Below, in pieces: positions 16,025 through 36,980 of a stretch of DNA of 64,000 nt. The stretch lies in contig JARICT010000082.1 of assembly GCA_029257185.1 (NCBI GenBank), positions 9,100-73,099 on the forward strand. The letters are read 5' to 3'. Made by a program: the position numbers and the translations under genes. This DNA is from Quadrisphaera sp. GTDB lineage: Bacteria > Actinomycetota > Actinomycetes > Actinomycetales > Quadrisphaeraceae. The notes under the pieces are model-generated. The model was given only the letters and a program-made list of their open reading frames with translations, made no database searches and was not told where the DNA came from. The first letter of the stretch is position 1, and each line of letters opens with the position of its first letter.

Positions 16025-17593
16025 CTACTCGCAGGCGACCCCGTCACCATCGCGGTCGACCCCGCTGCGATACCCCGGCTGGCCGCGGTAGAGCGGCGCC
16101 TTACCGGCAGCGCGCACGGCGGCGCAGTTGGCGTAGTACACGTCGCTGGGCGGCTGCGTCGGCGTCGGGGGCGAGACGTAGAGCGGCAGCAGGGTGCCTC
16201 GGCTGGCCGAGGTCGCGGCCTTGCCGGTGTCGAAGGCGGAGTACCAGGCCGGCGACCTGTCGCCGCGGTGGAGGACGGCGTTGCCGTCGTCCTGGACGTC
16301 GAGACGCAGCCGGCCCTCGCGCCAGCTCCCGGAGTCCCACACCGCTCGTCCGCCGCGGGAGGCGACGAGGTTGCCGTCACTCTGGAGCGTGAGGCGGTCC
16401 GCGCCGTAGGAGCCGGAGTAGAACAGCGGTCGCCCCCCGCGGTAGGCGACCACGTTGCCGTCCCGCTGGAGGATGAGGTGGTAGCGCCCGGACGCGGAGG
16501 TGATCTGCTGGCCGCGGGTGAGGGACTGTCCGGGGAACAGGGAGGTGCGGTCCCAGCCGGTGAACCATGCGGCCGAGCCGTTCGCGCGATACAGCACGAC
16601 GTTGCCGTCGTCCTGCACCCGCAGCGTCGCACCGGGGTTGCCGTAGGTACCGGCGTCCCACAGCGCGCGGCCGTCGCGCGCGTAGACCACCGCGTTCCCG
16701 TCGCTCTGGAGGACGAACCGGGCGCCCGGATTGCCGTAGGTGCCCGATGACCAGAGCGGGCGGTAGCCGGGCGCGTAGGCGACGAGGTTGCCGTCGGGCT
16801 GGAACGCCAGCCCGTGGCTGCGGTCGGCGGAGAGCAACCACGCGCCGGGCGTGAGGACCTGGCCCGCGCTCATCGACGAGCCGGTGGCGAGCACCGGGCC
16901 AGGGTCCGGTGCCGGCTGCGCCGGCCCGACGTCGGCGCGCTCGGGGACCTCGACGCGGGGGTCGCCGCACTGGGCCACCAGGCTCGACAGGGCGCTGCGC
17001 TCCGCGGTGTCCACGCTGAGGCTCCAGCGGTACTTCACCGCTGCCCACTCCTGCGCGTACCGGCACGAGGCGCCCGGCGCTGACGGCAGCCAGGACGCCG
17101 GGTCGCTGTCGGACTTCGCCTGGTTGCTCGTCCGGGTGACGGCAGCGAGCGTGGGCGCGAAGTCGAGCTCGTTGCCGTACGCCTCCTGCTGCTCGCCGGA
17201 CCAGCCCGAGGCCCCGGAGCGCCACGCCTCCGCGAGCGCGACGAGGTGGTCCACCTCGATCTCCGACGGGTCGGTCGTGGTCTTCCCGTCGTAGGAGGAG
17301 GTCCACGAGCCCGCCACCGAGCAGTTCGGGCCGATGGTCGCAGGGACCGTGGACTCGGCGATGAGCACCTCACGGCGGGTGTCGCAGCCGTCACCGTCGG
17401 CATCGATCCCGTAGCGGAAGGCGCCGCGGTCGTAGGCCGGGCTGGTGGCCTCCGCGCGCACCGGCAGGTCGGCGAGCAGCTGGGACAGCCGCACCTCCGC
17501 TGCGGACGCGGTCGGCGCCAGCGCGACGAGGGAGGTGGCGGCGAACGCCGCGGACAGGGCGCCGGCCAGCAGGCGCAGCGGATGTAAGGGCAT
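16025..17593 (-). CDS. secreted DUF1524 His-Me nuclease fused to two bulb-type (mannose-binding) lectin domains and an Excalibur domain
   Basis: Signal peptide ...APTASA|AEV. The nuclease core is GCDTRREVL...EVDHLVALAEAW...TRTSNQAKSD..WLP. Six QxDxNxVxY-type lectin subdomain motifs follow: FQPDGNLVAY, LQSDGNAVVY, VQDDGNVVLY, LQRDGNVVAY, LQSDGNLVAS, VQDDGNAVLH. The C-terminus is CAAVRAAGKAPLYRGQPGY..GVDRDGDGVACE. Confidence 0.75.
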   Translation of the reverse strand: MPLHPLRLLAGALSAAFAATSLVALAPTASAAEVRLSQLLADLPVRAEATSPAYDRGAFRYGIDADGDGCDTRREVLIAESTVPATIGPNCSVAGSWTSSYDGKTTTDPSEIEVDHLVALAEAWRSGASGWSGEQQEAYGNELDFAPTLAAVTRTSNQAKSDSDPASWLPSAPGASCRYAQEWAAVKYRWSLSVDTAERSALSSLVAQCGDPRVEVPERADVGPAQPAPDPGPVLATGSSMSAGQVLTPGAWLLSADRSHGLAFQPDGNLVAYAPGYRPLWSSGTYGNPGARFVLQSDGNAVVYARDGRALWDAGTYGNPGATLRVQDDGNVVLYRANGSAAWFTGWDRTSLFPGQSLTRGQQITSASGRYHLILQRDGNVVAYRGGRPLFYSGSYGADRLTLQSDGNLVASRGGRAVWDSGSWREGRLRLDVQDDGNAVLHRGDRSPAWYSAFDTGKAATSASRGTLLPLYVSPPTPTQPPSDVYYANCAAVRAAGKAPLYRGQPGYRSGVDRDGDGVACE

Positions 17594-18630: not shown

Positions 18631-19607
18631 GCCACGTACCGGCGGGCCACCGAGGCGGCCTGCGGCGCTTCGAGGACGCGGAACCTCGCCTCGACGGAGG
18701 GCGCCAGGACGCGGCGCTCGCGCAGGACCCACGGCAGGCCCCGCAGCGCGTCGAGGACCCCCAGCGCCCAGGTGCGGTCTCGCCTCGCCGAGCGCGTCAG
18801 CACCGCCGCGCGCCGCGCCACCGCGGGCCACGGGCGGCGCAGCAGCAGGAACCACAGGGCGTTGCTCACGCCGTCGCGGCGCCGGCGCACCGACTCGCGG
18901 GCGACCGAGGCCCGGTGGTGGACGGTCAGCGCCTCCGTGAAGCACAGCTCCCAGCCCGCGCTCGCGAGGTCGGCCGCGAGCAGCTCCTCCTCCCCGCCCA
19001 GCCACAGCCGGTGGTCGAACCCGCCCACGGCGGTGAACGCGGCGGCGCGCACCACCGAAGCGCCGGCGAGGAAGCTGCCCAGCGCGGGCCCGGGCAGGCC
19101 GGGGCGGGCGCCGACGACGGGGGAGTCCCGCAGCTCCGCGACGATGGGGTCCTCGGTACCGGCGGGCTCGACGACGATGCGCGCGGTGAGCACGGCGACG
19201 TCCTCGTGCGCGTCGAGCAGCGCGGCGGCGCGCTCCAGCGACCCGGGCTCCCACCAGGTGTCGTCGTCGCAGAAGGCCACGTGGGGCGTGGTGGCGCGGG
19301 CCACGCCGACGTTGCGCCCCGTCGCCCCGGCGTTGTACGGCAGCGCCACCAGGTCGAGCCGCTGCCCTGCGGCCGTGAACCGCTGCCGCAGGGCGGGAAC
19401 CGTCCCGTCGGTCGACCCGTTGTCCACCACGACCACGCGCGGGCGCTCGGGCAGGTCCAGCAGGCGCGCGACCGCGCCCAGCGCCTCCTCGCGGCGCTGG
19501 TGGGTGATGAGCACGACGCTGACGCGGCCGTGGACGGCGCCGTCGCCGGGCGGCGCCGCGGTGGCCACGGAGCCCGGCTCGTCGGCGCGGTCTGTCGTCA
19601 GGGTCAT
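18627..19607 (-). CDS. glycosyltransferase family 2 (tandem paralog of 17755-18630)
   Basis: VSVVLITHQRREEAL...VVDNGSTDGT...LPYNAGATGRNVG...VAFCDDDTWW is collinear with the downstream gene. The ATG at 19605-19607 was verified. Confidence 0.8.
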   Translation of the reverse strand: MTLTTDRADEPGSVATAAPPGDGAVHGRVSVVLITHQRREEALGAVARLLDLPERPRVVVVDNGSTDGTVPALRQRFTAAGQRLDLVALPYNAGATGRNVGVARATTPHVAFCDDDTWWEPGSLERAAALLDAHEDVAVLTARIVVEPAGTEDPIVAELRDSPVVGARPGLPGPALGSFLAGASVVRAAAFTAVGGFDHRLWLGGEEELLAADLASAGWELCFTEALTVHHRASVARESVRRRRDGVSNALWFLLLRRPWPAVARRAAVLTRSARRDRTWALGVLDALRGLPWVLRERRVLAPSVEARFRVLEAPQAASVARRYVA

Positions 19608-19661
19608 CGTCAAGGATGATGCCGTCTCCGGTTGCCGTCCGCCCACCGGGAGGAACAATTC

Positions 19662-19688
19662 CCGCACCGGCCCATCGCGCCGGTGCGG
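19662..19688. promoter_or_regulatory. perfect 10-bp inverted repeat upstream of the DUF2795 gene
   Basis: CCGCACCGGC-CCATCGC-GCCGGTGCGG lies ~50 nt upstream of the GTG at 19737, in the divergent GT2/DUF2795 intergenic region. Confidence 0.3.
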
Positions 19689-19736
19689 CCACCGGCGCGT
19701 GCGTGCCCGGCCGCGATCCCGTCCGGAGGAGACGTC

Positions 19737-19931
19737 GTGGCCGACCAGCCCAGCCCCATCGATCTGCAGAAGCACCTGAAGGGAGTCGACTACCCGGCGG
19801 GCAAGGACGCCCTGGTCGAGGCGGCGAAGGACAACGGCGCACCGCAGGACGTCCTCGAGCAGCTCGGGACCATCGCCGACCGCGAGTACGAGGGCCCGTC
19901 GGGCGTGGTCGAGGAGTTCTCGAAGGGCTGA
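19737..19931 (+). CDS. DUF2795 small protein
   Basis: PIDLQKHLKGVDYPAGKDALVEAAKDNGAPQDVLEQL...YEGPSGV is the DUF2795 pattern. The GTG at 19737 is preceded by GGAGGA. Confidence 0.6.
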   Translation: MADQPSPIDLQKHLKGVDYPAGKDALVEAAKDNGAPQDVLEQLGTIADREYEGPSGVVEEFSKG

Positions 19932-19978
19932 GCCCTCCGACGCTTCAGGTCGGAGATCGTCGGTCCGATGCCACCGGC

Positions 19979-22348
19979 ATGACCGACGTCCAGGCCGCGC
20001 TGACGCCGGCGGACGAGCTCGACCGTGTGCTCGCCGCCGGCGTCCTGCGCAGCGTCTTCCAGCCCATCGTCGACCTCGAGTCCGGCGCTGTCGTCGCCTT
20101 CGAGGCCCTCGTGCGCGGACCCGAGGGACCGCTCGCGCGTCCCGACGAGCTCTTCGCCGCCGCCCGCGAGCACGGTCGCCTCGCCGAGCTGGACGCCGCG
20201 TGCCGCCTCTCCGCCTTCCGCTCCGCGGTCCGCCACGAGCTCTTCGACCCCGTGCTGCTCTTCGTCAACGTCGAGCCCCAGGTGCTGGACACCGCACCGC
20301 TGGACGACCTCCTGGAGGTGATGGCCGGCGCCGCCGGGGACCTGCGCGTGGTCCTGGAGATCACCGAGCGGGCCCTGGCCACCCGGCCCGCCGACCTGCT
20401 CGCCACCGTCGAGCGCGTCCGGTCCCTCGGCTGGGGCGTCGCGCTGGACGACGTCGGCGCGGAGCCGCTGTCGCTGGCGTTCATGCCGCTGCTGCGCCCC
20501 GACGTCGTCAAGCTGGACCTCGCGCTCACCCAGGAGCGGCCCGGCGCCGAGGCCGCGCAGATCATGAACGCCGTCGGCGCGTACGCCGAGCGCTCAGGAG
20601 CCGTGGTCCTCGCCGAGGGCATCGAGACCGAGCAGCACGTCGTCATGGCCAGGGCGCTGGGGGCCACCCTGGGGCAGGGATGGCACTTCGGGCGGCCCGC
20701 CGAGGTCCCGGACCTCAGCCGCCCGGTCATGGCGCTGGCCGCGCCGTCGCCGCCGTCGGAGATCGCCCCCTCGCCGTTCACCGCGCTGCCGCCGGGCACG
20801 GTGCTGCGGCGCTCGCCGAAGCCGCTGCTCATCGAGGTGTCCAAGCAGCTGGAGCGCGAGGCCCTGCGCATCGGGGAGACGGCCGTGGTCACCGCCACCT
20901 TCCAGCACGCCCGCTACTTCACCCCCTCGACCACGGCCCGCTACCGCGACCTCGCCGAGCGGGTGGGCTTCGTGTGCGCGCTCGGCGAGGACATGCCCGA
21001 GGAACCCGTCCCGGGGGTGCCGGGTGTCCGAGGGGTGCACGTGCCGCTCGAGGACCCGATCCTGGGGGAGTGGGACGTCGCCGTCGTCGGCCCGCACTTC
21101 GCCGGCGCCCTGCTGGCCCGCGACCTCGGCGACATCGGCATCGAGCGCGAGCGGATGTTCGAGTACGCCCTGACCTACGACCGCGACGTGGTGATCGCCG
21201 CGGCCCGCTCGCTGATGTCCCGCGTCGTGGACCCGCTGGCGCCCGTGCTCGCGTCGGAGGAGCTGCTCGCGGCCTCGCGCCCGGCGGAGCGGGTCCTGGC
21301 GAACGACGGCTCGAGCACGACCACGACGTCGCGGGGTCCGGCACCGCTCCCGGCCCGCCTCGCCGCACCGGTGGACCCGGCGCTCATGGCCGTCCTGGCC
21401 CCGCAGGTGGCCGCCCTGCAGGAGGGCGGCCCGCTGGCCCGAGCGCTCGAGGCGTCGACGTCGGGCATCACCGTCTGCGACGCGACGGCCCCGGACTCCC
21501 CCCTGGTGTACGTGAACGGGGCCTTCGAGGCGCTCGCCGGCTTCGACCGCGAGGACCTCGTCGGCCGCAGCTGCCGCTTCCTCCAGGGCCGCGACAGCGA
21601 CCCGGCCGCGGTGGCACGCCTGCGCGCGGCCGTCGCCACCGGCGGCCACGCCCGCGAGACGCTCCTCAACTACCGGGGACCGGCGCGCACCCCGTGGTGG
21701 AACGAGGTCGTCATCTCCCCGGTCCACGACGCCGAGGGCGCCCTCGTGCAGTACGTCGGGGTGCAGACCGACGTCAGCGCCCGCGTCGAGGCGCAGCGCG
21801 CCCTGCGCCTGGAGCGCGACCGCGCCGCCAGCCTGCGCGGACGCCTCGACACCCTGGCGCGCACCGACGCCCTGACGCAGCTGCTGAACCGGCGCGCGTT
21901 CACCGAGGCCTTCGAGATCGCCCTGTGGGACGCCCGGGCCTCCGGCGACTCCCTCGTCGTGGCCCTGTGCGACGTCGACGGCCTCTCGGACATCAACGCC
22001 GAGCACGGCACCGCCGTCGGTGATGCGGTCCTCGCCGAGGTCGCGGCGCGGTTGCGCCGCCGGGTGCGCCGCAGCGACCTGCTCGCCCGCACCGGTGACG
22101 ACCAGTTCGTCGCCGTCCTCACCGGCCTGCACCGCAGCAACGCCGCGCCGTTGGCGGAGACCTTCACCGGCGCCGTGCACGAGGCGATGACGCGCCCCGT
22201 GGAGACCGCGCTGGGGCCGGTCGAGGCTCGCCTGAGCATCGGCGTCAGCGGGCACCCGGGCGACGGCGACGGCGCCGCGCACCTGGTCCGCACCGCCGAG
22301 GCAGCGATGCGCCGCGGACGGGAGCGCCGGTCTCCGACGAGGGTCTGA
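19979..22348 (+). CDS. EAL phosphodiesterase - DICT - LOV (PAS) - degenerate GGDEF signalling protein
   Basis: EAL catalytic set: FEALVRG, FVNVEP, LEITER, ALDDVGAEP, VKLD, AEGIETE, GQGWHFGRP. The DICT-like block is TATFQHARYF..RYRDLAE...GEWDVAVVGPHFAGALLA. The LOV core is VYVNGAFEALAGF..EDLVGRSCRFLQGRDSDP...LLNYRG...WWNEVVISPV.D..G....YVGVQTDVS, with Cys codon TGC at 21572-21574. In the GGDEF domain the motif is replaced by GDDQF (22091-22108) and the RxxD I-site (RRSD) is retained. Confidence 0.85.
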   Translation: MTDVQAALTPADELDRVLAAGVLRSVFQPIVDLESGAVVAFEALVRGPEGPLARPDELFAAAREHGRLAELDAACRLSAFRSAVRHELFDPVLLFVNVEPQVLDTAPLDDLLEVMAGAAGDLRVVLEITERALATRPADLLATVERVRSLGWGVALDDVGAEPLSLAFMPLLRPDVVKLDLALTQERPGAEAAQIMNAVGAYAERSGAVVLAEGIETEQHVVMARALGATLGQGWHFGRPAEVPDLSRPVMALAAPSPPSEIAPSPFTALPPGTVLRRSPKPLLIEVSKQLEREALRIGETAVVTATFQHARYFTPSTTARYRDLAERVGFVCALGEDMPEEPVPGVPGVRGVHVPLEDPILGEWDVAVVGPHFAGALLARDLGDIGIERERMFEYALTYDRDVVIAAARSLMSRVVDPLAPVLASEELLAASRPAERVLANDGSSTTTTSRGPAPLPARLAAPVDPALMAVLAPQVAALQEGGPLARALEASTSGITVCDATAPDSPLVYVNGAFEALAGFDREDLVGRSCRFLQGRDSDPAAVARLRAAVATGGHARETLLNYRGPARTPWWNEVVISPVHDAEGALVQYVGVQTDVSARVEAQRALRLERDRAASLRGRLDTLARTDALTQLLNRRAFTEAFEIALWDARASGDSLVVALCDVDGLSDINAEHGTAVGDAVLAEVAARLRRRVRRSDLLARTGDDQFVAVLTGLHRSNAAPLAETFTGAVHEAMTRPVETALGPVEARLSIGVSGHPGDGDGAAHLVRTAEAAMRRGRERRSPTRV

Positions 22349-22392
22349 GGGACGACCCCAGCGGCGCCGGCCGTCGGTGCCGGTCCTGCGCG

Positions 22393-23415
22393 TCAGGTCG
22401 CCAGCGACGCGACCGCGGCCACCACGTCGTCGACGGTGGTGCGCTCCAGCACCGGGTCGACGGCGTCCGCGTGGGGATCACCGGCCGGGACCATCCCCGG
22501 GCGGTGATCGCCGGGGGCCGGCCACAGCACCACGTGACGGTCGTGGTCGATCGCCGGACCCCACCGCGAGGGCGGCGTCGGCCCGAACAGCAGCACCGAG
22601 GGCGTCCGCGCGGCCGTGGCGACGTGGGCCACACCGGTGTCCCCGCAGACCAGCAGCGCCGCGCCCGCCACCGTCTCGGTCAGAGCGCGCAGGTCCAGGC
22701 GCCCGCAGCGGTCCTCGCCGGCGCGCGCCGTGACGGCGGCGCACAGCGCCGCCTCCGACGCCGTGCCGGTGACGACCACGCGGTCCCCGCCGGCGACCAG
22801 GCGCTGCGCGAGCGCGGCCCACCGGTCCGCAGGCCACCGCCGCGAGCCCGACGCGGCCCCCGGGTGCAGGACGACGACCCGCTCTTGCGACGACGCCTCC
22901 TCCTGGCGGCGGGCGAGCGCGGGCAGCACGAGGTCCTCGCGCCCGCACGGGCCACCGGCGGAGCGCACCAGGGCGCACCAGCGGTCCACCTCGTGCGCGT
23001 CGGGGTCGAGCGGGAGGCCGCCGGGGACCACCGTGCTCGCGGGCGCGACAGTCACGGCGGGGCCGAGCGCCGCCAGCGCCGCGGCGCTCTGCGGCCCGTC
23101 ACCGTGGAGGTTCATGCCGACGTCGACCGCCCGCTCCAGGCGTTCCCGCAGCTCCGGCGACGCGCGCCGCACCGCTTGGAGCAGGGCGTCCGGTGCCAGC
23201 GGCGCCAGCCCGCTGACGTCCAGCACGTCGTCGACCACGGCGTGCTCGCGCAGCAGCTCGCCCACGCTCCGCGGGCACGCGAGGACCAGGTGCGCGCCGG
23301 GGAACGCCCGGCGCAGGCCCCTCAGGGCCGGGACACCGGTGAGCGCGTCCCCGAGACCGAGCGCCCGCAGCGCGAGGACGGTCCGGACGGCGCCCGCCCC
23401 CGGCACCGCTGGCAT
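22393..23415 (-). CDS. glycosyltransferase family 9 (heptosyltransferase-type)
   Basis: VLALRALGLGDALTGVPALRGLRRAFP...VVLHPGAASGSRRWP..RW..LA..L...G..VVVTG...LLVCGDTGVAHVA.A..TPSVLLFGPT is the GT9 pattern. The ATG at 23413-23415 was verified. Confidence 0.8.
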   Translation of the reverse strand: MPAVPGAGAVRTVLALRALGLGDALTGVPALRGLRRAFPGAHLVLACPRSVGELLREHAVVDDVLDVSGLAPLAPDALLQAVRRASPELRERLERAVDVGMNLHGDGPQSAAALAALGPAVTVAPASTVVPGGLPLDPDAHEVDRWCALVRSAGGPCGREDLVLPALARRQEEASSQERVVVLHPGAASGSRRWPADRWAALAQRLVAGGDRVVVTGTASEAALCAAVTARAGEDRCGRLDLRALTETVAGAALLVCGDTGVAHVATAARTPSVLLFGPTPPSRWGPAIDHDRHVVLWPAPGDHRPGMVPAGDPHADAVDPVLERTTVDDVVAAVASLAT

Positions 23416-23432: not shown

Positions 23433-24173
23433 TCAGGGCCAGGACGGCTCGGTCGAGACCGTGACCACCAGCTCGCGGACCTCGGTCCCGATCGGCTGGC
23501 GCAGCGCGTGCACCACGGACAGCGCCACCTGGCGGGGGTCCATGAGGGCGGCGTCGGGCCCGGGCTTGTACTGCTCGGTGCGCCCGTCGAAGAACGCGGT
23601 GCGCATGCCCGCGGGCACGAGCATCGTCACGCCCACCTGACCGGCGAGCTCGAGCTGCAGCGCCCGCGTGAGGCCGACGACGCCGAACTTCGAGGCGCAG
23701 TAGGCGCTCGCGTCCGACGCCGCCCGCAGGCCGAGGGAGGAGCCGACGGTGACCACGGTGCCGCGGGCCTGCACCAGGTGGGGCAGGCAGGCGCGCACCG
23801 CGGCGGCCGTGCCGACGAGGTTGACACCGATGACCTTCTCCCACGAGGCGGTGCCCACGTCCTCCAGGCGCCCGACGGCGTCGGTGCCCGCAGCGGTGAG
23901 CAGCGCGGTGGGCGGGCCCACCTGCTCCACGAGGGAGGCGACCGCCGCCTCGACGGCGCTCGCGTCGGAGACGTCGGCGATGGCGTGCGGACCGCCTGAC
24001 GGCGGGGCGTCGCGGTCGATGACGGCCGCGACGCCGCCCAGCGCCGTGACCACCTCGACGACCGCCGCGCCCAGCCCGGACGAGCCGCCGGTGACGTAGA
24101 CGGTCCCCAGCTCTCGCTGGGGCGCCAGCCCGAGGTCGGCCAGGGCGTCGTGCTCGGGCGCAGGGGTGGTCAT
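23433..24173 (-). CDS. classical short-chain dehydrogenase/reductase
   Basis: TGGSSGLG cofactor motif, NLVG, a YCASK (YxxxK) catalytic motif, ~246 aa. The ATG overlaps the upstream stop (ATGA at 24170-24173). Confidence 0.85.
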   Translation of the reverse strand: MTTPAPEHDALADLGLAPQRELGTVYVTGGSSGLGAAVVEVVTALGGVAAVIDRDAPPSGGPHAIADVSDASAVEAAVASLVEQVGPPTALLTAAGTDAVGRLEDVGTASWEKVIGVNLVGTAAAVRACLPHLVQARGTVVTVGSSLGLRAASDASAYCASKFGVVGLTRALQLELAGQVGVTMLVPAGMRTAFFDGRTEQYKPGPDAALMDPRQVALSVVHALRQPIGTEVRELVVTVSTEPSWP

Positions 24174-26392
24174 GCGGGTGCCTCCGTGAGGTGGTGGTCG
24201 GGTGGGGGCGCCGGCGCCGCGCCGCGCGCCAGGGTGGACGTGGTGGAGCGGCCCTCGAGGTGGGGCAGGAGGACGACCTCGCCGCCCCAGCCGCGCACCA
24301 GGGGAGCCTCGGGCAGGTCGGCGACGGCGTAGTCGCCGCCCTTGACCCACACGTGAGGACGCAGCCGGTTCAGCGCGTCGCGGGGGTCGTCCTCGTCGAA
24401 GACGAGCACCGCGTCGACGCTGCCGAGCGCGAGGAGCACCGCGGCGCGGTCGGCAGCGGTGTTCACCGGTCGCCCGGGGCCCTTGAGGCGGCGCACCGAG
24501 TCGTCGGAGTTCAGCAGCACCACGAGGGCGTCACCCAGGCGCGCGGCGCCGGCGAGCATCGACACGTGCCCGGCGTGCAGCACGTCGAAGCACCCGCCGG
24601 TGGCGACCAGGCGGCCCCCGGTCGCGCGCACCCGTGCGGCGAGCGAGGCCGCGCCGGGGCCGCCGGCCAGGTCCGACGCCGCGTCGTCGCCGTCGTGGGA
24701 CGCCCGCCCCCGGGCGCTGCCGAGGCGGACCCGCTGGCGCCACCCGCTGGCACCGCCCGCGTCCACCCACGCAGAGGCAGCGCCGACGGCGACCGCGACG
24801 GCGCTGGCGGGGTCGGCGCCGCGTGCCAGGGCGATCGCGGCGCTGGCGGCAAACCGGTCGCCGGCCCCGGCGGGGTCGCCCGAGGCCACGGGCGGCGCGG
24901 GGACGTACAGGGCGGCGTGCTCGCCGTCCTGCCCGCCATCGGGGTGCTCGCGCGCCAGGAAGGCCCCGTGGGCGCCGGCGGTCACGGCCACGGCCGCGGC
25001 GGCCCACCGCCGCTGCAGCGCGGTGCAGGCCCGCTGCGGCTCGGCGTCCGCGTCGCCCAGGACCCGTGCCCCCTCGGAGACGTTCGGGGTGACGAGGGCG
25101 CAGCCCAGCACCGGCTCGCCGCCGCGCGGGTGCGGGTCCCACACCACCGGCGCGGTCCTCGCGGCGAGCTCCAGCGCTGCCCGCACGGCCGGCTCTCTGG
25201 TGGTGCCGGCGCCGTAGTCGCTCACCAGCACCACGTCGGCGCGCTCCAGCACCTCGGCCAGCGACGCGGCGTCCACTCCCAGCGGCGCGCCGCTCCCGCC
25301 GTCGTCGAGGCGGACGAGCGACTGCCCGGCCACCCGCACGCGGGTCTTGGTGCGCGTGCCGCCGTCGTGGCCCAGCCCGTGCACCCCCACGCCGCCGCTC
25401 TCCAGCGCCGCGCGCAGGCGAGCGCCGGCGTCGTCGTCGGCCAGCGGCGTCACGAGGGTCACGCTGACGCCGGCTTCCTCGCAGAGCAGGGCGGTGAGGC
25501 CGGCGCCGCCGGGGCTCTCGTGGGTGTCGCCGACGTCGACCACGGGCACGGGCGCGTCGGGCGCGACCCGCTCGGCGGTGCCGAGCACGTCGCGGTCGAG
25601 GACCACGTCGCCGACCACGACGAGCCGCACCGCGCGGGGCCCCGGCCCAGCGGCTCTCTCGACCTCCCGCGGCGCGGGCCGGGGCCGGCGGGGCACGACG
25701 GTCGGTGAGGGCTCGTCCGCCGTCGCGGCCGTCGCGGGTATCGCGGCGGCCGCTGGTGGTGGCGCCGGGGCGTGCTCGTGACCGTCGCCGTCCAGCGCGC
25801 GGACCCGGGCGTCCACCGCCGCGCACAGCGCGTGGATCGCGACGAGGTGGCCCTCCTGCACCGCCGACGTGGTCGGTGCCTCGAGGCACAGGGCGTCGTC
25901 GCTCAGCGCGCTCAGCGGGTTCGGCCCCGGACCCGTCAGCGACCACACCGTCAACCCGTCCTCGCGGGCGCGGCGGGCGGCGGCGAGGACGTTCTCGCTG
26001 CGCCCGCTGGCGGAGAGCAGGAGGAGCACGTCGCCGGGGCGGCCGTGGGCGGCGACGCCGCGGGCGAACACGTCGTGGGCGCCGTAGTCGTTGGCGATCG
26101 CCGTGGTCGAGGACGTGTCGGCGTGCAGCGCGATCGCCGACAGCGGCCGGCGCTCGCCGACGAACCGGCCGACCAGCTCCGCGGTGAGGTGCTGGGCCTC
26201 GGCGGCGCTGCCCCCGTTCCCCGCTGCCAGGAGCCGCCCGCCGCCGGCCAGGACCGCGCCGAGGTGCGTGCCCCAGGCGTCGAGGCGCTCGCCCGCGCCG
26301 ACCAGCTGGCCGACCACGGAGCGCAGCTCGTCGGCGTGGCCGCCGAGCCAGCCGGCGGCCGGGCCGGCGCTCGCGCCCCCTCGGGCGGTCAT
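24170..26392 (-). CDS. tri-domain fusion: phosphoheptose isomerase (GmhA, SIS) + heptose-7-P kinase + heptose-1-P adenylyltransferase (HldE)
   Basis: This is a single frame with no stop. The SIS domain has GNGGSAAEAQHLTAEL and SASGRSENV. A Pro/Ala linker of ~60 aa follows. The PfkB kinase domain has VVVGDVVLD and GAGDRF. The cytidylyltransferase-fold domain has GGCFDVLHAGH and VKGGDY. The ATG at 26390-26392 overlaps the upstream stop. Confidence 0.75.
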   Translation of the reverse strand: MTARGGASAGPAAGWLGGHADELRSVVGQLVGAGERLDAWGTHLGAVLAGGGRLLAAGNGGSAAEAQHLTAELVGRFVGERRPLSAIALHADTSSTTAIANDYGAHDVFARGVAAHGRPGDVLLLLSASGRSENVLAAARRAREDGLTVWSLTGPGPNPLSALSDDALCLEAPTTSAVQEGHLVAIHALCAAVDARVRALDGDGHEHAPAPPPAAAAIPATAATADEPSPTVVPRRPRPAPREVERAAGPGPRAVRLVVVGDVVLDRDVLGTAERVAPDAPVPVVDVGDTHESPGGAGLTALLCEEAGVSVTLVTPLADDDAGARLRAALESGGVGVHGLGHDGGTRTKTRVRVAGQSLVRLDDGGSGAPLGVDAASLAEVLERADVVLVSDYGAGTTREPAVRAALELAARTAPVVWDPHPRGGEPVLGCALVTPNVSEGARVLGDADAEPQRACTALQRRWAAAAVAVTAGAHGAFLAREHPDGGQDGEHAALYVPAPPVASGDPAGAGDRFAASAAIALARGADPASAVAVAVGAASAWVDAGGASGWRQRVRLGSARGRASHDGDDAASDLAGGPGAASLAARVRATGGRLVATGGCFDVLHAGHVSMLAGAARLGDALVVLLNSDDSVRRLKGPGRPVNTAADRAAVLLALGSVDAVLVFDEDDPRDALNRLRPHVWVKGGDYAVADLPEAPLVRGWGGEVVLLPHLEGRSTTSTLARGAAPAPPPDHHLTEAPA

Positions 26393-27714
26393 CGCCGGGC
26401 CCTCCCCGACGAGGCGTGGCGCAGGGGCCCGGCGGCGACGTCCCGCCGGGCGAGCACCTCGGCGAAGGCCTCCTCCGTGGCGGCGGCCACCCGGTCCCAG
26501 CCGTAGCGCTCCACGACGCGGGCCCGTGCCGCCCGTCCGTACCGTGCGGCGAGGGTCGGGTCGGCCAGCAGCGGGGCGAGCGCCGCCGCCAGCGCCGCGG
26601 GATCGCGCGGGGGCACGAGCTCCCCGGTCACGCCGGGCGTCACGGTGTCGAGGAGCCCGCCCACGGCGCTGCCGACCACGGGGACGCCGCACGCCATGGC
26701 CTCCAGCGGCACCAGGCCGAACGGCTCGTACCAGGGGGTGGCCACGACGGCGTCGGCGCTGCGCAGCACCGCCGGCAGGTCGGCGTGGTCCACGCGTCCC
26801 ACCAGGTGCACGCGCTCGCCCACACCGAGGTCGCCGGCGAGCGCCCGGAGCCGCACCGCCTCGGGGTCGCGGCCCAGGTCCTCGCGCTCCCCGCCGCCGA
26901 CCACCACCAGCTCGGTGCCCTCGAGCACGGGCAGGGCCCGCACGATGGTGTCCACGCCCTTGCGCTCCACGAGCCTCGAGACGCTCACCAGCCGGTGGCG
27001 CAGCCCGCGAGCGGCGTCCGGTACCGGCAGCGCGCGCGGCCCGTCGGGGCAGAAGTGCTCGACGTCCACGCCGCACGGCACCACCCGCAGGGGCGCGAGG
27101 AGGTCGTCCGTGAGGCTCTCGAAGGGGTCCGAGGAGGCCACGTCCGCACCCGCGGAGGCGTCGCAGAGGACGAGGTCGACGAGCTCGGCCACCTCGTCGG
27201 TGCAGGTGGCGACCACGAGGTCCGCCTCGCGCGCCAGCGCCGCCTCCAGGCGGACGCGCACGAGCGGCGAGGAGTCGTCGTCGCCCTGGTGGCGGCGCTT
27301 GACGCTGCCGAGCGCGTGGAAGGTCACCGCGACCGGCACCCCGGTGGCGCGCCCGGCCTCCAGCGCCGCCACCCCGGACATCCAGAAGTGGGCGTGCACC
27401 ACGTCGGGCGCGAGCAGCGGGTCGGACCAGCGGCGGACCAGCTCGGCGGCGAAGGCGGGCATCCAGACGAGGAGGTCGTCCTTGGGCAGCGCCCTGGGGG
27501 GCCCGGCGTCCACGTGGACGACGTCGACGCCCGGGAGCATCGTCACGCGCTGCGCCGCGGACGCGTCGTCGCGGCGGGTGAACACCTCGACGTCGTGCCC
27601 GCGCCGCGCGAGCGCCGTGGCGAGCGCGGCGACGTGCACGTTCTGCCCCCCGGCGTCCACGCCGCCGAGCGCGGCCAGGGGGCTGGCGTGCTCGGAGACC
27701 ATCGCGACCCTCAC
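26389..27714 (-). CDS. glycosyltransferase family 4 (GT-B, MshA-like)
   Basis: VSEHASPLAALGGVDAGGQNVHV..LA.AL..RGH.V.VFT at the N-terminus, then ...SRLVERKG...PWYEPFGLVPLEAMACGVPVV (EX7E). The GTG at 27714 overlaps the upstream stop. The ATG at 27702 is an alternative start. Confidence 0.85.
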   Translation of the reverse strand: MRVAMVSEHASPLAALGGVDAGGQNVHVAALATALARRGHDVEVFTRRDDASAAQRVTMLPGVDVVHVDAGPPRALPKDDLLVWMPAFAAELVRRWSDPLLAPDVVHAHFWMSGVAALEAGRATGVPVAVTFHALGSVKRRHQGDDDSSPLVRVRLEAALAREADLVVATCTDEVAELVDLVLCDASAGADVASSDPFESLTDDLLAPLRVVPCGVDVEHFCPDGPRALPVPDAARGLRHRLVSVSRLVERKGVDTIVRALPVLEGTELVVVGGGEREDLGRDPEAVRLRALAGDLGVGERVHLVGRVDHADLPAVLRSADAVVATPWYEPFGLVPLEAMACGVPVVGSAVGGLLDTVTPGVTGELVPPRDPAALAAALAPLLADPTLAARYGRAARARVVERYGWDRVAAATEEAFAEVLARRDVAAGPLRHASSGRARR

Positions 27715-28715
27715 GGCCGTCCCGCCACGGTGTCCTCCAGGAGGTGGTCGAGGTCGCAGAGGAAGCGGGAGATGCCGAAGCGGGCCAGGGCGTGCTCGCG
27801 CGCCCCGGCCCCGCGCTCCGCCGCCTCTGCGCGGTCGGCGACCCACCGGTGGGCGGTCTCGGCGAGGACCCGGGGGTCGTTGGACAGGACGCCGGCGCCG
27901 GCGGGCACGGACTCGGGGGCGGCGGTGGTCGCGAGGGCGAGCACCGGGGAGCCGAGGGTCATGGCCTCGACGAGCGCGAGGCCGAGCGACGTCCACCGGT
28001 AGGGGTGCAGGTAGCCGCGGTGGTGCGCGAGCGCCGGGTGCAGGTCGCCCTGGGGGAGGTCCTCGACGGTGCGCCCGGCCAGGTGCGGCGCGGCGCCGAC
28101 GAGGGCGTCCATCCCCATGCCGTAGACGCCGAGAGGCACGCCGTGGCCGCCCGGCGCCGGGGCGCTGAGGGCGACGACGAGGTCGGTGCCGGCCACGCGC
28201 CACCGGCGCACGGGCTCGTTGACCACCACCGCGAAGGACTCCTGCTCCCCGGTCCAGAGCGGCCCGGGGTCCAGGACGCCGTGCTCGAGGACGTGCGTGG
28301 GCGCGCCGTCGGCGTCCCACATGACGGCGTTGAACGCGGTGACGTGCACCAGCGGCAGCACCGGCGCCCCGGCGGCGCGCTGCGCGGCGGGCATCGGGTG
28401 GACGCTGCGCGCGGCGTGCTCGGTCGGTGCGTTGTGCTCGACGTAGAGCGCCGGCACGTCAGCGCCGGCGACCAGCCCGGTCCACTCGCGCAGTAGGGCG
28501 GCCTCGTGGGGGCGCTGCAGCACCACCACGTCGGGGGGCTCGTCCGCGAGGACGTGCGGTGACACCTCGACGGCGGAGGCAGGCCAGTCCCAGGTGCGCG
28601 CGCGACCTCGCCCGTCGGGCCCTCGGGCGTCGTCCACGGGGAGGAGGTAGGTGTGGTCGCCCTGGACCAGCGAGGTGGTCCACGAGCCGTGCACGTGCCA
28701 CGACAGGACCCTCAC
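27711..28715 (-). CDS. glycosyltransferase (GT-B / GT4-like, divergent)
   Basis: The C-terminal half, YLHPYRWTSLGLALVEAMTLGSPVLAL, resembles the GT4 nucleotide-sugar binding region. The N-terminal half is divergent. The GTG at 28715 overlaps the upstream stop. Confidence 0.6.
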   Translation of the reverse strand: MRVLSWHVHGSWTTSLVQGDHTYLLPVDDARGPDGRGRARTWDWPASAVEVSPHVLADEPPDVVVLQRPHEAALLREWTGLVAGADVPALYVEHNAPTEHAARSVHPMPAAQRAAGAPVLPLVHVTAFNAVMWDADGAPTHVLEHGVLDPGPLWTGEQESFAVVVNEPVRRWRVAGTDLVVALSAPAPGGHGVPLGVYGMGMDALVGAAPHLAGRTVEDLPQGDLHPALAHHRGYLHPYRWTSLGLALVEAMTLGSPVLALATTAAPESVPAGAGVLSNDPRVLAETAHRWVADRAEAAERGAGAREHALARFGISRFLCDLDHLLEDTVAGRP

Positions 28716-29860
28716 GACGCCGCCCCCGCCAGGCTGGCGCCGCCGAGGTCCGACGGAGCGATCCCGGCCGCGAGCCGGTCCACGGCGGCGACCACCTCTG
28801 CGGGGTCCACGGCGAGGCAGGGGTGGCCGGGGACGGGGCAGTGCCGGGCCCGCGTGAGGCGGCACGGTGCGTCCTGGTCCCCGAGGACCGCGCTGGGCAC
28901 GCCGAACGGGGCCCACCGCTCACGGGGCACCACGGCGGAGAACCAGCAGGCCACGGGGGTGCCCACGGCGGCCGCCAGGTGGGCCGGGCCGGTGTTGCCG
29001 ACCACCGCGGCGCGGGCGCCGGCGAGCAGGACGGCCAGGCCCTCGAGGTCGGTGCGCCCGGAGACGTCGAGGGAGCCTGGCGCGGCGGCGCAGACGTCGG
29101 CGGCGAGGGCCAGCTCCGCCGGGCCGCCGGTGACGACCACGGCCCACCCGTCCGCCGCCAGCGCCGCGGCGGTGTCGGCGGCCACGGCGGGAGAAGGGGC
29201 GCGCGCCGGCACGGACGCGCCGGGGTGGACCACGACGTAGCCCCGGCGCTCCGGCCTCGACCCCGAGGCACGCACCACCGTGTCGAGGTCAGCGCGCAGA
29301 TCCTCCGGCAGCGGGCGAAGGCCGGCGCGCAGGGCCAGGCGGACGTCGTCGGGGCGGGGCACCGCTCGGCCGCTGGCGGCGACGAGCGCGAGGTTGGCGA
29401 CCACCTCGTGCTCGCCGCCGCTGCCGTCCGGTGCGCCGGGGCGACGGTGGCGCACGTCGAGCAGCGAGCCGGGGTAGTCCTCGCTGGCGCCCACCACGCG
29501 GGGCACCCCGGCCATGCGGGCGATCAGCGCGATCGGCAGCGGCGACTGGTGGTAGGAGGTGAAGACGACCACCTCGTCGTACGGGCGGGCGCGCAGCTCC
29601 TCGACGAGGTGCAGGAGCGCTGCGGGGTCCGGCGCGGGCGGGGCGTACCCGGCCCACGGCACGTCCGCGACCACCACGTCGTCCACCCCGGGCAGCAGGC
29701 GCGCGGCGGCGGCGCCCGCGGGCGCGGCGAGCAGGTCCACGCGTGCCGCTCGCGCGCCGTCAGGCCCGTGGCGCAGGGCGCGGACGGCAGGTCCGGTCAT
29801 GAGCACGTCGCCGTCGCTGTCGGTGCGCACCGCCAGGACGCGCAGGCCGCCGGCCGTCAT
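28712..29860 (-). CDS. glycosyltransferase family 9 (heptosyltransferase-type)
   Basis: LRVLAVRTDSDGDVLMTGPAVRAL...VVVHPGASVPARAP......L...G..VVVTGGP.E...LLAGARAAVVGNTGPAHLAAAVGTPV. The ATG at 29858-29860 overlaps the upstream stop. Confidence 0.8.
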   Translation of the reverse strand: MTAGGLRVLAVRTDSDGDVLMTGPAVRALRHGPDGARAARVDLLAAPAGAAAARLLPGVDDVVVADVPWAGYAPPAPDPAALLHLVEELRARPYDEVVVFTSYHQSPLPIALIARMAGVPRVVGASEDYPGSLLDVRHRRPGAPDGSGGEHEVVANLALVAASGRAVPRPDDVRLALRAGLRPLPEDLRADLDTVVRASGSRPERRGYVVVHPGASVPARAPSPAVAADTAAALAADGWAVVVTGGPAELALAADVCAAAPGSLDVSGRTDLEGLAVLLAGARAAVVGNTGPAHLAAAVGTPVACWFSAVVPRERWAPFGVPSAVLGDQDAPCRLTRARHCPVPGHPCLAVDPAEVVAAVDRLAAGIAPSDLGGASLAGAAS

Positions 29861-33029: not shown

Positions 33030-33101
33030 GGGTGCTGTTCTATCGGAGGTGCGGCCACTCGGCACGACGAGGTGCCCGAGCGCCCCACAGGGGCCCGGGC
33101 T

Positions 33102-33127
33102 GCGACCGTGCGACGACGCACGGTCGC
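33102..33127. promoter_or_regulatory. perfect 11-bp-stem / 4-nt-loop palindrome between the heptose operon and the aldehyde dehydrogenase gene
   Basis: GCGACCGTGCG-ACGA-CGCACGGTCGC lies 73-98 nt upstream of the carbamoyltransferase ATG and ~100 nt upstream of the ALDH start. Confidence 0.4.
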
Positions 33128-33227
33128 CGGAGGTGATCATGACACGAGGCGCGCGTGTTGATCAAGGAGGACATGAGAGTCGATCTTCTCGCGCCGCCCT
33201 CCGATCGCCGACCGCGCAGCCCTGGGG

Positions 33228-36967: not shown

Positions 36968-36980
36968 AGCCCCGCTGGGC

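What the first reader, a model, noticed from the sequence alone, without database searches (positions are those of the whole stretch)
19979..22348. EAL-DICT-LOV-degenerate GGDEF: a predicted blue-light-gated c-di-GMP phosphodiesterase with inverted domain order
The PAS domain at ~21461-21780 carries the full LOV signature, including GRSCRFLQG with the adduct-forming Cys (TGC at 21572-21574), and the flavin-contacting LLNYRG...WWNEVVISPV...YVGVQTDVS.

The N-terminal EAL domain retains every catalytic motif I checked: EAL, N, EITE, DDVG, KLD, EGIE, QG. The C-terminal GGDEF domain has GDDQF instead of GG(D/E)EF. It still keeps an RxxD I-site (RRSD) five residues upstream, so it probably functions as a c-di-GMP- or GTP-sensing or dimerisation module rather than as a cyclase. 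A DICT-like sensory domain lies between EAL and LOV.

The LOV-GGDEF-EAL proteins I know of have the opposite order. EAL first and GGDEF last, with DICT and LOV in the middle, is unusual. The gene lies between a GT2 pair and the heptose-glycan operon. That suggests (by inference only) light control of surface glycan production in a non-phototroph.
Basis: partly seen in the sequence, partly recalled or inferred. Interest (0 to 1): 0.65.

Follow-up and report, generated by a model that had tools for sequence, protein, structure and literature searches.

The report
Light-sensor phosphodiesterase with dead cyclase domain
This gene encodes a four-domain signalling protein that probably degrades the bacterial messenger c-di-GMP and carries an intact blue-light sensor. 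It belongs to a large, uncharacterised actinobacterial family rather than being a one-off, and whether light actually controls the degrading activity is not shown.

Summary
Window 19979-22348 (+) encodes a 789-aa protein with EAL (12-240), DICT (about 265-443), LOV (about 486-600, Cys532 at 21572-21574), a 35-residue helix and GGDEF (630-783, GDDQF, RRSD).

The interpretation needs three corrections.

1. The architecture is not rare. More than 120 protein clusters and at least 57 species genomes carry it (Kineococcus, Blastococcus, Geodermatophilus, Modestobacter, Nocardioides). It is a fusion of a stand-alone EAL-DICT unit with a long-linker LOV-GGDEF photoswitch of the LadC type (PDB 8c05). 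The opposite order, LOV-GGDEF-EAL-DICT, also exists.

2. The degenerate GGDEF is a recent loss. 108 of 120 homologs keep GGDEF, and only the window's small subclade carries E709Q plus further decay. LOV stays under purifying selection there, and in a second cyclase-dead Blastococcus lineage. LOV therefore has some output other than cyclase catalysis.

3. LOV is wired by its helix to GGDEF. A disordered linker of about 30 residues separates it from EAL-DICT. Light gating of the phosphodiesterase is plausible but only inferred. The EAL has every catalytic residue but a degenerate, YkuI-like loop 6.

Linkage to glycan genes is synteny within one clade only. My verdict is a new variant of a known kind, of moderate interest.

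The parts
19979..22348 (+). Complete gene, 789 aa: EAL-DICT-LOV-GGDEF* protein
   Evidence: ORF and translation; Pfam domains; 100% identical to database protein P0001.
20012..20698 (+). EAL domain (residues 12-240). Catalytic residues E42, R46, N97, E127, E130, D157, D158, K178, E213, E216 and Q233 are present. Loop 6 is DVGAEPLS, which is degenerate and YkuI-like. R63 stands where TBD1265 has a Glu.
   Evidence: Pfam 2.5e-41. These residues are invariant in 119-120 of 120 homologs. Alignments to the active phosphodiesterases TBD1265, PdeA and RocR. Loop-6 segment alignment to YkuI. Foldseek TM 0.76-0.78 to 3u2e and 2r6o.
20771..21307 (+). DICT domain (Pfam core 279-382; the conserved fold spans about 265-443)
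   Evidence: Pfam PF10069, 7.8e-11. AF2 model pLDDT 81.7, pTM 0.81. Stand-alone EAL-DICT proteins end right after this segment. Weak Foldseek similarity to PLD-superfamily folds.
21308..21385 (+). Disordered Ala/Pro/Ser-rich inter-module linker (residues 444-469)
   Evidence: pLDDT below 50 for residues 437-469. 5-49% identity between homologs, with omega 0.50.
21386..21778 (+). LOV domain with N-terminal A'alpha helices (residues 470-600). Flavin-contact set: C532, R533, Q536, R549, N564, N575, Q596.
   Evidence: PDB LOV hits. NCBIfam YtvA and LOV-HK hits. These residues are invariant in 119-120 of 120 homologs. TM 0.94 to 9vf7. omega 0.19.
21572..21574 (+). TGC codon of the adduct-forming Cys532 (GRSCRFLQG)
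   Evidence: Cys is present in 120 of 120 homologs; the preceding Asn is Ser only here.
21779..21865 (+). Signalling helix / coiled-coil linker (residues 601-629). D598 to L632 is 35 residues, the LadC long-linker class.
   Evidence: Continuous helix 600-628 in the AF2 model. Ungapped alignment to 8c05. Linker definition taken from PMC10396304.
21866..22327 (+). Degenerate GGDEF domain (residues 630-783). Motif is GDDQF (22094-22108). Also G634Q, F669L, K670S, D674A, H678T. The RxxD I-site RRSD (22067-22078) is retained.
   Evidence: Pfam 1.7e-30. Motif census. omega 0.49 against a family median of 0.29.
19734..19931 (+). DUF2795 small gene, 47 nt upstream and co-oriented. It may be co-transcribed. 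This is context only and is not shown to be functionally linked.
   Evidence: Pfam 2.9e-21. The same linkage occurs in L083, L081 and L084.

Best explanation
The protein is a cytoplasmic c-di-GMP signalling enzyme, probably dimeric, built from two evolutionary modules.

Module 1, EAL-DICT (residues 1-443). This is a c-di-GMP phosphodiesterase unit that also exists as a stand-alone protein of about 420 aa. Its EAL has the full two-metal catalytic set but a non-canonical loop 6. It is therefore probably an inducible (class-2-like) phosphodiesterase tuned by the adjacent DICT domain, whose ligand is unknown.

Module 2, LOV, a 35-residue coiled coil, and GGDEF (residues 470-789). This is a LadC-type blue-light switch. 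In the dark, the GGDEF domains are held against the LOV dimer, with the RxxD loop in the interface. Blue light forms the flavin-Cys532 adduct, shifts the coiled-coil register and releases the GGDEF domains.

In most family members the release would switch on c-di-GMP synthesis, giving a bifunctional enzyme. In the window's subclade the cyclase is dead (E709Q, G707D, K670S, D674A, H678T), so the protein can only lower c-di-GMP.

LOV and the RxxD loop are still under selection. The light-driven rearrangement of LOV-GGDEF* is therefore most likely kept as a regulatory input. I think it acts on the phosphodiesterase of the same dimer, through changes in quaternary structure that affect EAL dimerisation. 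The sign of the light effect is unknown.

Status of each step:
- Shown: domain content, motif states, family distribution, selection pattern.
- Inferred from homology: flavin photocycle, dead cyclase, phosphodiesterase competence.
- Speculative: coupling from LOV to EAL.
For: - Domains and motifs.
- EAL catalytic residues are invariant across 120 homologs and align with the active phosphodiesterases TBD1265, PdeA and RocR.
- Stand-alone EAL-DICT proteins end right after DICT. They are the commonest architecture among 1079 DICT relatives.
- The LOV-GGDEF half aligns without gaps to LadC 8c05 at E 4.9e-37, and 8c05 is the top Foldseek hit at 5e-22.
- The linker is 35 residues, the long-linker class that shows more than 10,000-fold light activation. 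In that class the I-site loop packs on LOV (PMC10396304; PMC12805367).
- GGDEF is intact in 108 of 120 homologs. It is degenerate in P0001-P0004, which share E709Q. The window deviates at 6 of 40 family-conserved GGDEF positions, against 1 of 44 in LOV.
- dN/dS, window versus its 82% ortholog: EAL 0.13, DICT 0.17, LOV 0.19, GGDEF 0.49.
- Baseline dN/dS medians from 139 pairs with intact GGDEF: 0.13, 0.22, 0.23 and 0.29. The window's GGDEF/LOV ratio is exceeded by only 2% of these pairs.
- A second cyclase-dead lineage of 9 Blastococcus genomes (TRDSF, ARDSF, SHDSF, GRDAF), and the GGSEL group, also keep GRNCRFLQG, Q596, RxxD and the EAL motifs.
Against: - No helix or conserved interface connects LOV to EAL. 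The two halves are joined by a disordered, fast-evolving linker, and pTM for the whole chain is only 0.53.
- Loop 6 departs from the DFG(T/A)GYSS found in active EALs (PMC2994820). It resembles that of YkuI. From memory, YkuI showed no activity in vitro.
- R63 replaces a Glu that is present in TBD1265.
- N531S next to the adduct Cys occurs in only 1 of 120 homologs, and its effect on flavin binding is unknown.
- GGDEF omega of 0.49 equals that of the disordered linker, so the domain may simply be decaying.
- RxxD invariance can be explained by the LOV-GGDEF interface alone. It need not indicate c-di-GMP sensing.
- No experiment exists for any family member in the literature I could search.
Confidence: 0.5

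Rival explanations
1. The two modules are independent. EAL-DICT works as a phosphodiesterase that is constitutive or DICT-regulated, and LOV has no influence on it. The LOV-GGDEF* half is either a light-dependent scaffold or c-di-GMP receptor acting on other partners through the I-site or the released GGDEF surface, or it is a relic on its way to loss.
For: - The disordered, unconserved linker at 437-469 separates the halves.
- EAL-DICT functions as a stand-alone protein in many genomes.
- The GGDEF shows relaxed constraint, with omega 0.49 equal to that of the linker.
- I-sites are implicated in protein-protein contacts (PMC12805367).
Against: - The fusion is stably inherited across at least 57 species and several orders, which suggests a functional benefit of linkage.
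- LOV remains at omega 0.19 long after cyclase loss, and also in a second dead-cyclase lineage. This excludes the 'relic' version for LOV.
Confidence: 0.25
2. The EAL domain is not an enzyme in vivo. With its degenerate loop 6 it would bind c-di-GMP without turning it over, as reported for YkuI, or as in LapD/FimX-type receptors. The whole protein would then be a light- and c-di-GMP-sensing effector that acts through protein-protein interaction.
For: - Loop 6 is DVGA(D/E)xxS in all 120 homologs, against the canonical DFG(T/A)GYSS.
- YkuI is the third-best PDB match for this segment and shares the G-to-E change.
- EALs with a degenerate loop 6 are rated only 'potentially active' (PMC7005169).
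Against: - Every metal-binding and catalytic residue is invariant across the family. Receptor-type EALs usually lose several of these.
- omega of 0.13 is the lowest of all the domains.
- The closest full-domain PDB matches are active phosphodiesterases.
Confidence: 0.15
3. One reading: the protein puts surface heptose-glycan production under light control, as implied by its position between the GT2 pair and the heptose operon.
For: - The arrangement GT2-GT2 | (DUF2795) | gene | GT9-SDR-GmhA/HldE recurs in the window, L001, L083 and, more loosely, L081.
- From general knowledge, c-di-GMP commonly controls exopolysaccharide synthesis.
Against: - The linkage is confined to one clade at 61-82% identity, so it can be explained by shared ancestry.
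- In L081, five unrelated genes (two without Pfam hits, EamA, MarR, MFS) intervene. In L084 the GT2 pair is absent.
- 78 other loci, K. radiotolerans and Nocardioides have unrelated neighbours.
- The gene is divergent from, or convergent with, the glycan genes, so it is not in their operons.
- None of the neighbouring proteins I scanned has a PilZ or other c-di-GMP receptor domain.
Confidence: 0.1

Closest known systems
LadC, LOV-activated diguanylate cyclases (MsLadC, PDB 8c05; Vide et al. 2023, PMC10396304; 2025, PMC12805367)
   Same: - LOV is followed directly by GGDEF through a coiled coil of exactly 35 residues (D of DVS to L of DxLT).
- The alignment is ungapped over residues 491-722, at E 4.9e-37.
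- The RxxD loop is present.
- 8c05 is the top structural match.
   Different: - The window protein carries an extra N-terminal EAL-DICT module.
- Its GGDEF is catalytically degenerate (GDDQF, K670S, D674A, H678T), so it cannot be a light-activated cyclase.
- The Asn before the Cys is Ser.
LOV-GGDEF-EAL phosphodiesterases such as Synechococcus SL2 (as reviewed in PMC8846402)
   Same: A LOV domain with the adduct Cys is combined with GGDEF and EAL in one chain. Blue light raises the EAL activity of SL2.
   Different: - The module order is permuted: EAL is N-terminal and is not contiguous with GGDEF.
- A DICT domain and a disordered linker lie between EAL and LOV.
- No member of this family has been tested.
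Canonical-order relatives, LOV/PAS-GGDEF-EAL-DICT (e.g. P0206, P0181; GAF-PAS-GGDEF-EAL-DICT in P0171)
   Same: - The same four domain families are present.
- The EAL-DICT unit has the same DDVGA(D/E)xxSLA loop 6.
- P0206 has GRNCRILQG with the Cys.
   Different: - The module order is opposite.
- The LOV-GGDEF linker is short, at 21 residues.
- GGDEF is intact.
Stand-alone EAL-DICT proteins of Actinomycetota (about 405-450 aa; e.g. P0141, loci L058, L061, L064-L066, L072-L074)
   Same: 47-61% identical over residues 13-417 (best tblastn segment), with the same catalytic residues and loop 6. They end where DICT ends.
   Different: They have no LOV-GGDEF module.
YkuI of Bacillus subtilis (PDB 2bas): EAL plus a C-terminal sensor-like domain
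   Same: - Catalytic residues are kept, but loop 6 is degenerate, with Glu in place of the second Gly: DNIGKESS versus DDVGAEPL.
- The EAL is followed by a putative regulatory domain.
   Different: - The C-terminal domain of YkuI is PAS-like, not DICT (from memory).
- Sequence similarity is only distant, at E 1e-9.
- YkuI has no LOV or GGDEF.
PdeA CC3396 / FimX-type hybrids with a degenerate GGDEF that regulates the EAL
   Same: A degenerate GGDEF sits next to an EAL with an intact active site. The PdeA EAL is among the closest solved EALs.
   Different: - In those proteins GGDEF directly precedes EAL.
- Here the order is reversed and the two domains are far apart in sequence.
- Several GTP-contact residues (K670, D674) are lost, while the I-site is kept. 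That combination is uncommon in hybrids (PMC2952852).

Membership tests
LOV photosensory domain | PAS fold with flanking A'alpha and Jalpha helices | tested here: met
   AF2 model, pLDDT 87-97 over residues 490-600. Foldseek TM 0.94, rmsd 0.8 A to LOV 9vf7.
LOV photosensory domain | GXNCRFLQ motif with the adduct-forming Cys | tested here: met
   GRSCRFLQG at 529-537. Cys532 is present in 120 of 120 homologs. There is one deviation, N531S, unique among the 120.
LOV photosensory domain | Flavin-contact residues: two Arg, two Asn, two Gln | tested here: met
   R533, Q536, R549, N564, N575 and Q596 are present and invariant in 119-120 of 120 homologs. Their spacing matches the ungapped alignment with solved LOV domains; the per-residue equivalences (for example to YtvA numbering) come from memory, not from a tool result.
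LOV photosensory domain | Binds FMN or FAD and forms a reversible C4a-cysteinyl adduct in blue light | not testable with these tools
   Needs purified protein and UV-visible spectroscopy.
LadC (LOV-activated diguanylate cyclase) | LOV joined to GGDEF by a coiled coil of 21 or 35 residues | tested here: met
   D598 to L632 is 35 residues, with an ungapped alignment to 8c05.
LadC (LOV-activated diguanylate cyclase) | Catalytically competent GGDEF, i.e. GG(D/E)EF plus substrate and metal residues | tested here: not met
   The window has GDDQF, K670S, D674A, H678T and G634Q. 108 of 120 family members do meet this feature.
LadC (LOV-activated diguanylate cyclase) | RxxD loop available for the dark-state inhibitory interface | tested here: met
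   RRSD at 697-700. R and D are present in 120 of 120 homologs. Role of the loop as described in PMC12805367.
EAL c-di-GMP phosphodiesterase, class 1 (active) | Catalytic and metal-binding residues: EAL Glu, Arg, Asn, ExxE, DD, K, ExxE, Q | tested here: met
   E42, R46, N97, E127/E130, D157/D158, K178, E213/E216 and Q233 are all present, and invariant in the family.
EAL c-di-GMP phosphodiesterase, class 1 (active) | Conserved loop 6, DFG(T/A)GYSS | tested here: not met
   The window has DVGAEPLS and the family has DVGA(D/E)xxS. The motif definition is from PMC2994820. This places the domain in the 'potentially active' class 2 (PMC7005169).
EAL c-di-GMP phosphodiesterase, class 1 (active) | Hydrolyses c-di-GMP to pGpG | not testable with these tools
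   Needs an enzyme assay.
DICT domain (PF10069) | Match to the family HMM above the gathering score | tested here: met
   42.4 bits against 23.8, E 7.8e-11, profile positions 22-128 of 129. There are 1079 relatives in the representative library.
GGDEF diguanylate cyclase | GG(D/E)EF active-site motif with the metal-binding second acidic residue | tested here: not met
   GDDQF carries E709Q and G707D. The domain fold itself is present: Pfam 1.7e-30, TM 0.89 to 4urs.
LOV-GGDEF-EAL (SL2-type light-activated phosphodiesterase) | Domain order LOV, then GGDEF, then EAL, with contiguous GGDEF-EAL | tested here: not met
   The order here is EAL-DICT-LOV-GGDEF. Canonical-order relatives exist separately.

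The most novel reading that the evidence does not exclude
The LOV-coiled coil-GGDEF* half has been repurposed. It was once a light-activated cyclase and now acts as a purely allosteric photoswitch driving an N-terminal EAL-DICT phosphodiesterase, through light-induced uncaging and dimer rearrangement. This would be a wiring route not described for LOV proteins: a sensor in the middle of the chain, the effector upstream across a flexible tether, and a dead enzyme domain as the transducer. With DICT as a second small-molecule input, possibly of PLD-like fold, the protein would be a natural two-input (light AND/OR ligand) c-di-GMP phosphodiesterase. Its intact-GGDEF relatives would be light-switchable bifunctional enzymes.
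Probability: 0.3. Interest if true: 0.6.

Novelty: new variant of a known kind. Interest (0 to 1): 0.4.

Why it matters
LOV-coupled c-di-GMP enzymes are both a model for signal transmission through coiled coils and a source of optogenetic tools.

This family offers a natural experiment. The same LadC-type switch is found with a live cyclase in most members and with a dead one in at least two independent lineages, and it is always fused to an EAL-DICT unit. That makes three questions directly testable with a handful of recombinant proteins:
- What a LOV domain does once its enzyme partner is dead.
- Whether an EAL with a non-canonical loop 6 is activated by its neighbours.
- What the DICT domain senses. 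A 2022 census described DICT as having 'no discernible physiological purpose'.

The carriers are sun-exposed rock, desert and soil actinobacteria (Geodermatophilaceae, Kineococcus), so light input into biofilm or motility decisions is ecologically plausible.

The finding does not reveal a new kind of system.

Tried and rejected
- Exact look-up of the window protein's contig: nothing on record. Cluster look-up gave no organism or name. The closest genome is an 'Actinomycetales bacterium' MAG at 82% identity.
- Rfam scan of 19000-23000 for a riboswitch or leader: nothing.
- Promoter and terminator consensus scan of 19300-22700: nothing, as expected at 76% GC.
- Literature searches for the architecture (EAL-LOV-GGDEF, EAL-PAS-GGDEF, EAL-DICT), for Kineococcus with LOV, and for 'DICT domain': no description of this family. 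The Glantz 2016 LOV census is not held.
- Foldseek of the DICT model against the PDB: no hit at E of 1e-3 or better. The best hits (E 3e-3 to 5e-2, TM 0.42-0.55) are repeatedly PLD-superfamily folds, namely PPK1, Zucchini, Tdp1, PssA, NgoAVII and TrmB. There is no HKD motif. I treat this as a lead, not an assignment.
- The idea that the GGDEF is neutrally decaying: rejected in its strong form, because omega is 0.49 rather than about 1 and the RxxD and fold residues persist.
- The idea that the glycan neighbourhood is a conserved functional linkage: rejected.
- An alternative upstream start in the 910-aa ORF from 19616: rejected. That stretch overlaps the DUF2795 gene in another frame, and homologs start at the equivalent of 19979.
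Full report
**1. What is there**

Window 19979-22348 (+) is a single ORF of 789 codons. No alternative in-frame start lies between the stop of the upstream DUF2795 gene (19931) and the ATG at 19979.

Pfam places four domains in this order:
- EAL, residues 12-240, E 2.5e-41.
- DICT, residues 279-382, E 7.8e-11, 42 bits against a gathering score of 23.8.
- PAS_9, residues 498-600, E 4.4e-16.
- GGDEF, residues 628-783, E 1.7e-30.

This includes Cys532 (TGC 21572-21574) in GRSCRFLQG, GDDQF at 706-710, and RRSD five residues upstream of it.

The PAS domain is a LOV domain by every sequence test available:
- NCBIfam YtvA-family 1.3e-30 and LOV histidine kinase 1.9e-29.
- Dozens of solved LOV structures at E 1e-21 to 1e-31.
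- The flavin-contact set R533, Q536, R549, N564, N575, Q596.
- A predicted fold that superposes on the Meiothermus LOV 9vf7 at TM 0.94 and 0.8 A.

**2. It is a family, not a singleton**

A search of 5.8 billion proteins returned more than 120 clusters at 90% identity, all full-length and 55-82% identical, with the same Pfam set. They come from Kineococcus (including K. radiotolerans), Blastococcus, Geodermatophilus, Trujillonella, Nocardioides, Quadrisphaera, Pseudokineococcus and Aquipuribacter.

A scan of one genome per species found 79 loci, of which at least 57 encode the full architecture. The window's own organism is not among them. The nearest is an 'Actinomycetales bacterium' MAG at 82% identity (L001).

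So EAL-first, GGDEF-last is unusual only relative to characterised proteins. I found no paper that names it.

**3. Two modules**

Many Actinomycetota encode a protein of about 405-450 aa that is just EAL-DICT and stops where DICT ends.

Among 1079 DICT relatives in a library of 1.84 billion representatives, this stand-alone form is the commonest. It is followed by the window's architecture, and then by proteins with DICT at the C-terminus. Those last proteins are PAS_9-GGDEF-EAL-DICT or GAF-PAS_9-GGDEF-EAL-DICT. One of them, P0206, has a bona fide LOV motif (GRNCRILQG) and a 21-residue LOV-GGDEF linker.

EAL-DICT is thus the constant unit, and a LOV-GGDEF unit has been attached on either side of it.

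The C-terminal half of the window protein aligns without gaps to the LOV-activated cyclase MsLadC (8c05, E 4.9e-37), which is also the top structural hit (5e-22). Its linker from D598 (DVS) to L632 (DALT) is 35 residues. This is exactly the 'long-linker' LadC class. That class shows more than 10,000-fold light activation, and in its dark state the GGDEF domains, including the RxxD loop, pack on the LOV dimer (PMC10396304; PMC12805367).

The AF2 model of the full chain (pLDDT 83.8, pTM 0.53) shows one continuous helix, 600-628, from LOV into GGDEF. It also shows a disordered segment at 437-469 between DICT and LOV. This segment is the least conserved part of the protein, at 5-49% identity.

**4. 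The degenerate GGDEF is a recent, recurrent loss**

In the alignment of 120 sequences, 108 have GGDEF together with G634, F669, K670, D674 and H678.

Only the window's subclade (P0001-P0004, 73-82% identical) shares E709Q. The motif is GGDQF in two members, AGDQF in the 82% ortholog and GDDQF in the window. The window additionally has G634Q, F669L, K670S, D674A and H678T.

The window deviates at 6 of 40 family-conserved GGDEF positions. By contrast it deviates at only 1 of 44 in LOV, 3 of 125 in EAL and 4 of 81 in DICT.

From general knowledge, Glu-to-Gln at this position removes a metal ligand and is used to make inactive cyclases. I rate the cyclase as dead, with confidence about 0.9.

Nei-Gojobori dN/dS between the window and L001, compared with the median from 139 family pairs with intact GGDEF at similar divergence:

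| Region | Window vs L001 | Baseline median |
|---|---|---|
| EAL | 0.13 | 0.13 |
| DICT | 0.17 | 0.22 |
| LOV | 0.19 | 0.23 |
| Coiled coil | 0.37 | not calculated for this set |
| GGDEF | 0.49 | 0.29 |
| Disordered linker | 0.50 | not calculated |

The window's GGDEF/LOV ratio is exceeded by only 2% of the baseline pairs, and its GGDEF/EAL ratio by only 0.7%. The GGDEF is therefore relaxed but not free. LOV, EAL and DICT are as constrained as elsewhere in the family.

Other groups with a degenerate GGDEF motif all keep the LOV motif, RxxD and the EAL residues. They are nine Blastococcus genomes with TRDSF, ARDSF, SHDSF or GRDAF, and a GGSEL group.

Persistence of an intact LOV after repeated cyclase loss is the best available evidence that LOV has an output other than cyclase catalysis.

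**5. Is the EAL active?**

All residues of the two-metal site are present and invariant. The closest solved EALs are active enzymes: TBD1265, PdeA, RocR and PA3825.

Loop 6, however, is DVGA(D/E)xxS rather than DFG(T/A)GYSS. The canonical motif is associated with activity and dimerisation (PMC2994820). This puts the domain in the 'potentially active' class 2 (PMC7005169).

For the loop-6 segment, YkuI is the third-best PDB match and shares the Gly-to-Glu change. In addition, R63 stands where TBD1265 has a Glu.

The variant loop is itself invariant, so it is a functional feature of EAL-DICT units. I read it as an EAL that needs an activating input, with DICT as the obvious candidate.

The function of DICT is unknown (PMC8846402). 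My model of it (pLDDT 81.7) gives only weak PDB matches (best E 3e-3). These are consistently PLD-superfamily folds, including the effector-binding domain of TrmB. This is a lead only.

**6. Mechanism**

Best-supported model: an EAL-DICT phosphodiesterase fused to a LadC-derived photoswitch whose cyclase is dead, so that the protein can only lower c-di-GMP.

Blue light should form the flavin-Cys532 adduct and release the GGDEF* domains from the LOV dimer. I infer that this rearrangement is retained because it modulates the phosphodiesterase, through quaternary structure, or modulates a partner. The sign of the effect is unknown.

My confidence in each element:

| Claim | Confidence |
|---|---|
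| LOV photochemistry works | about 0.85 |
| Cyclase is dead | about 0.9 |
| EAL is catalytically competent | about 0.65 |
| LOV gates the phosphodiesterase | about 0.4 |

The main rival is that the two halves act independently. The disordered tether is the strongest argument for that view.

**7. Genomic context**

On the minus strand upstream are GT2, GT2. On the plus strand are DUF2795 and then the gene. On the minus strand downstream are GT9, SDR, a fused GmhA-HldE, further GTs and a carbamoyltransferase.

This block recurs only in the window's clade: L001, L083, and L081 with five unrelated genes inserted. In L084 the GT2 pair is missing. It is absent from 78 other loci, from K. radiotolerans and from Nocardioides.

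The gene is divergent from, or convergent with, the glycan genes. The inference of light-controlled glycan synthesis therefore has no comparative support beyond shared ancestry.

**8. Verdict**

This is a real, well-formed gene. It is a member of a large but uncharacterised actinobacterial family that permutes known modules (LadC plus EAL-DICT).

The specific copy is a cyclase-dead derivative. It is a new variant of a known kind, of moderate interest. Its main value is as a natural test case for what a LOV switch does without its enzyme, and as a handle on DICT.

Noticed in passing
window 19734-19931 (+): A small DUF2795 gene lies 47 nt upstream of the EAL gene and is co-oriented with it (Pfam 2.9e-21). 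The same DUF2795-to-gene linkage, sometimes with an epimerase between them, occurs in L083, L081 and L084. It is absent from L001 and from the other family loci.
   Followed up: partly
window 20771-21307 (DICT segment); model mc10a9d8a9def: The AF2 model of DICT (pLDDT 81.7) gives only weak PDB matches (best E 3e-3, TM 0.42-0.55). These are repeatedly PLD-superfamily folds: PPK1 C-domains, Zucchini, Tdp1, PssA, NgoAVII and the TrmB effector domain. No HKD motif is present. This may hint that DICT is a non-catalytic PLD-like ligand sensor.
   Followed up: partly
loci L058, L061, L064-L066, L069, L070, L072-L074; proteins P0141, P0206, P0181, P0171: EAL-DICT behaves as a fixed two-domain unit. 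It is found as a stand-alone protein of about 420 aa, and with LOV/PAS-GGDEF attached either before or after it. All forms share the unusual loop 6, DDVGA(D/E)xxSLA.
   Followed up: yes
loci L006, L007, L009, L016, L017, L025, L036, L039, L050: A second, independent cyclase-dead lineage in Blastococcus has TRDSF, ARDSF, SHDSF or GRDAF in place of GGDEF. It still keeps an intact LOV Cys motif, RxxD and the EAL residues.
   Followed up: partly
loci L005-L076 (contig ranges listed): In at least 14 Geodermatophilaceae assemblies the family gene sits about 15.5-16.6 kb from a contig end. This suggests conserved synteny next to a repeat that breaks assemblies, possibly an rRNA operon.
   Followed up: no
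L068 7905-9284: A contig binned as an Acetobacteraceae MAG encodes an actinobacterial-type stand-alone EAL-DICT protein, 49% identical to the window protein. This is either horizontal transfer or bin contamination.
   Followed up: no
window 24170-26392 (-): A single ORF fuses SIS (GmhA-like), PfkB kinase and cytidylyltransferase (HldE-like) domains, giving a three-activity heptose-nucleotide synthesis protein. It is followed by a GT1-like gene (27711-28916), a second GT9 (within 28712-31210) and a carbamoyltransferase (31377-33140).
   Followed up: partly
window 16025-17593 (-): A secreted protein combines a GmrSD_C-like nuclease domain, bulb-lectin repeats and a C-terminal Excalibur calcium-binding domain.
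   Followed up: no
window 36785-38263 (+): A protein with a baeRF_family2 domain (bacterial archaeo-eukaryotic release-factor-like), E 2.1e-23.
   Followed up: no
window 42000-46000 and 54000-58000: GC content drops from about 0.76 to 0.67-0.70. The first dip covers a class I ribonucleotide reductase large subunit with an ATP-cone (43361-46522, minus strand).
   Followed up: no
protein P0194 (1195 aa): EAL-DICT-PAS-GGDEF, with the GGDEF truncated, runs into a Beta_elim_lyase domain. This is probably a gene-call or assembly fusion.
   Followed up: no
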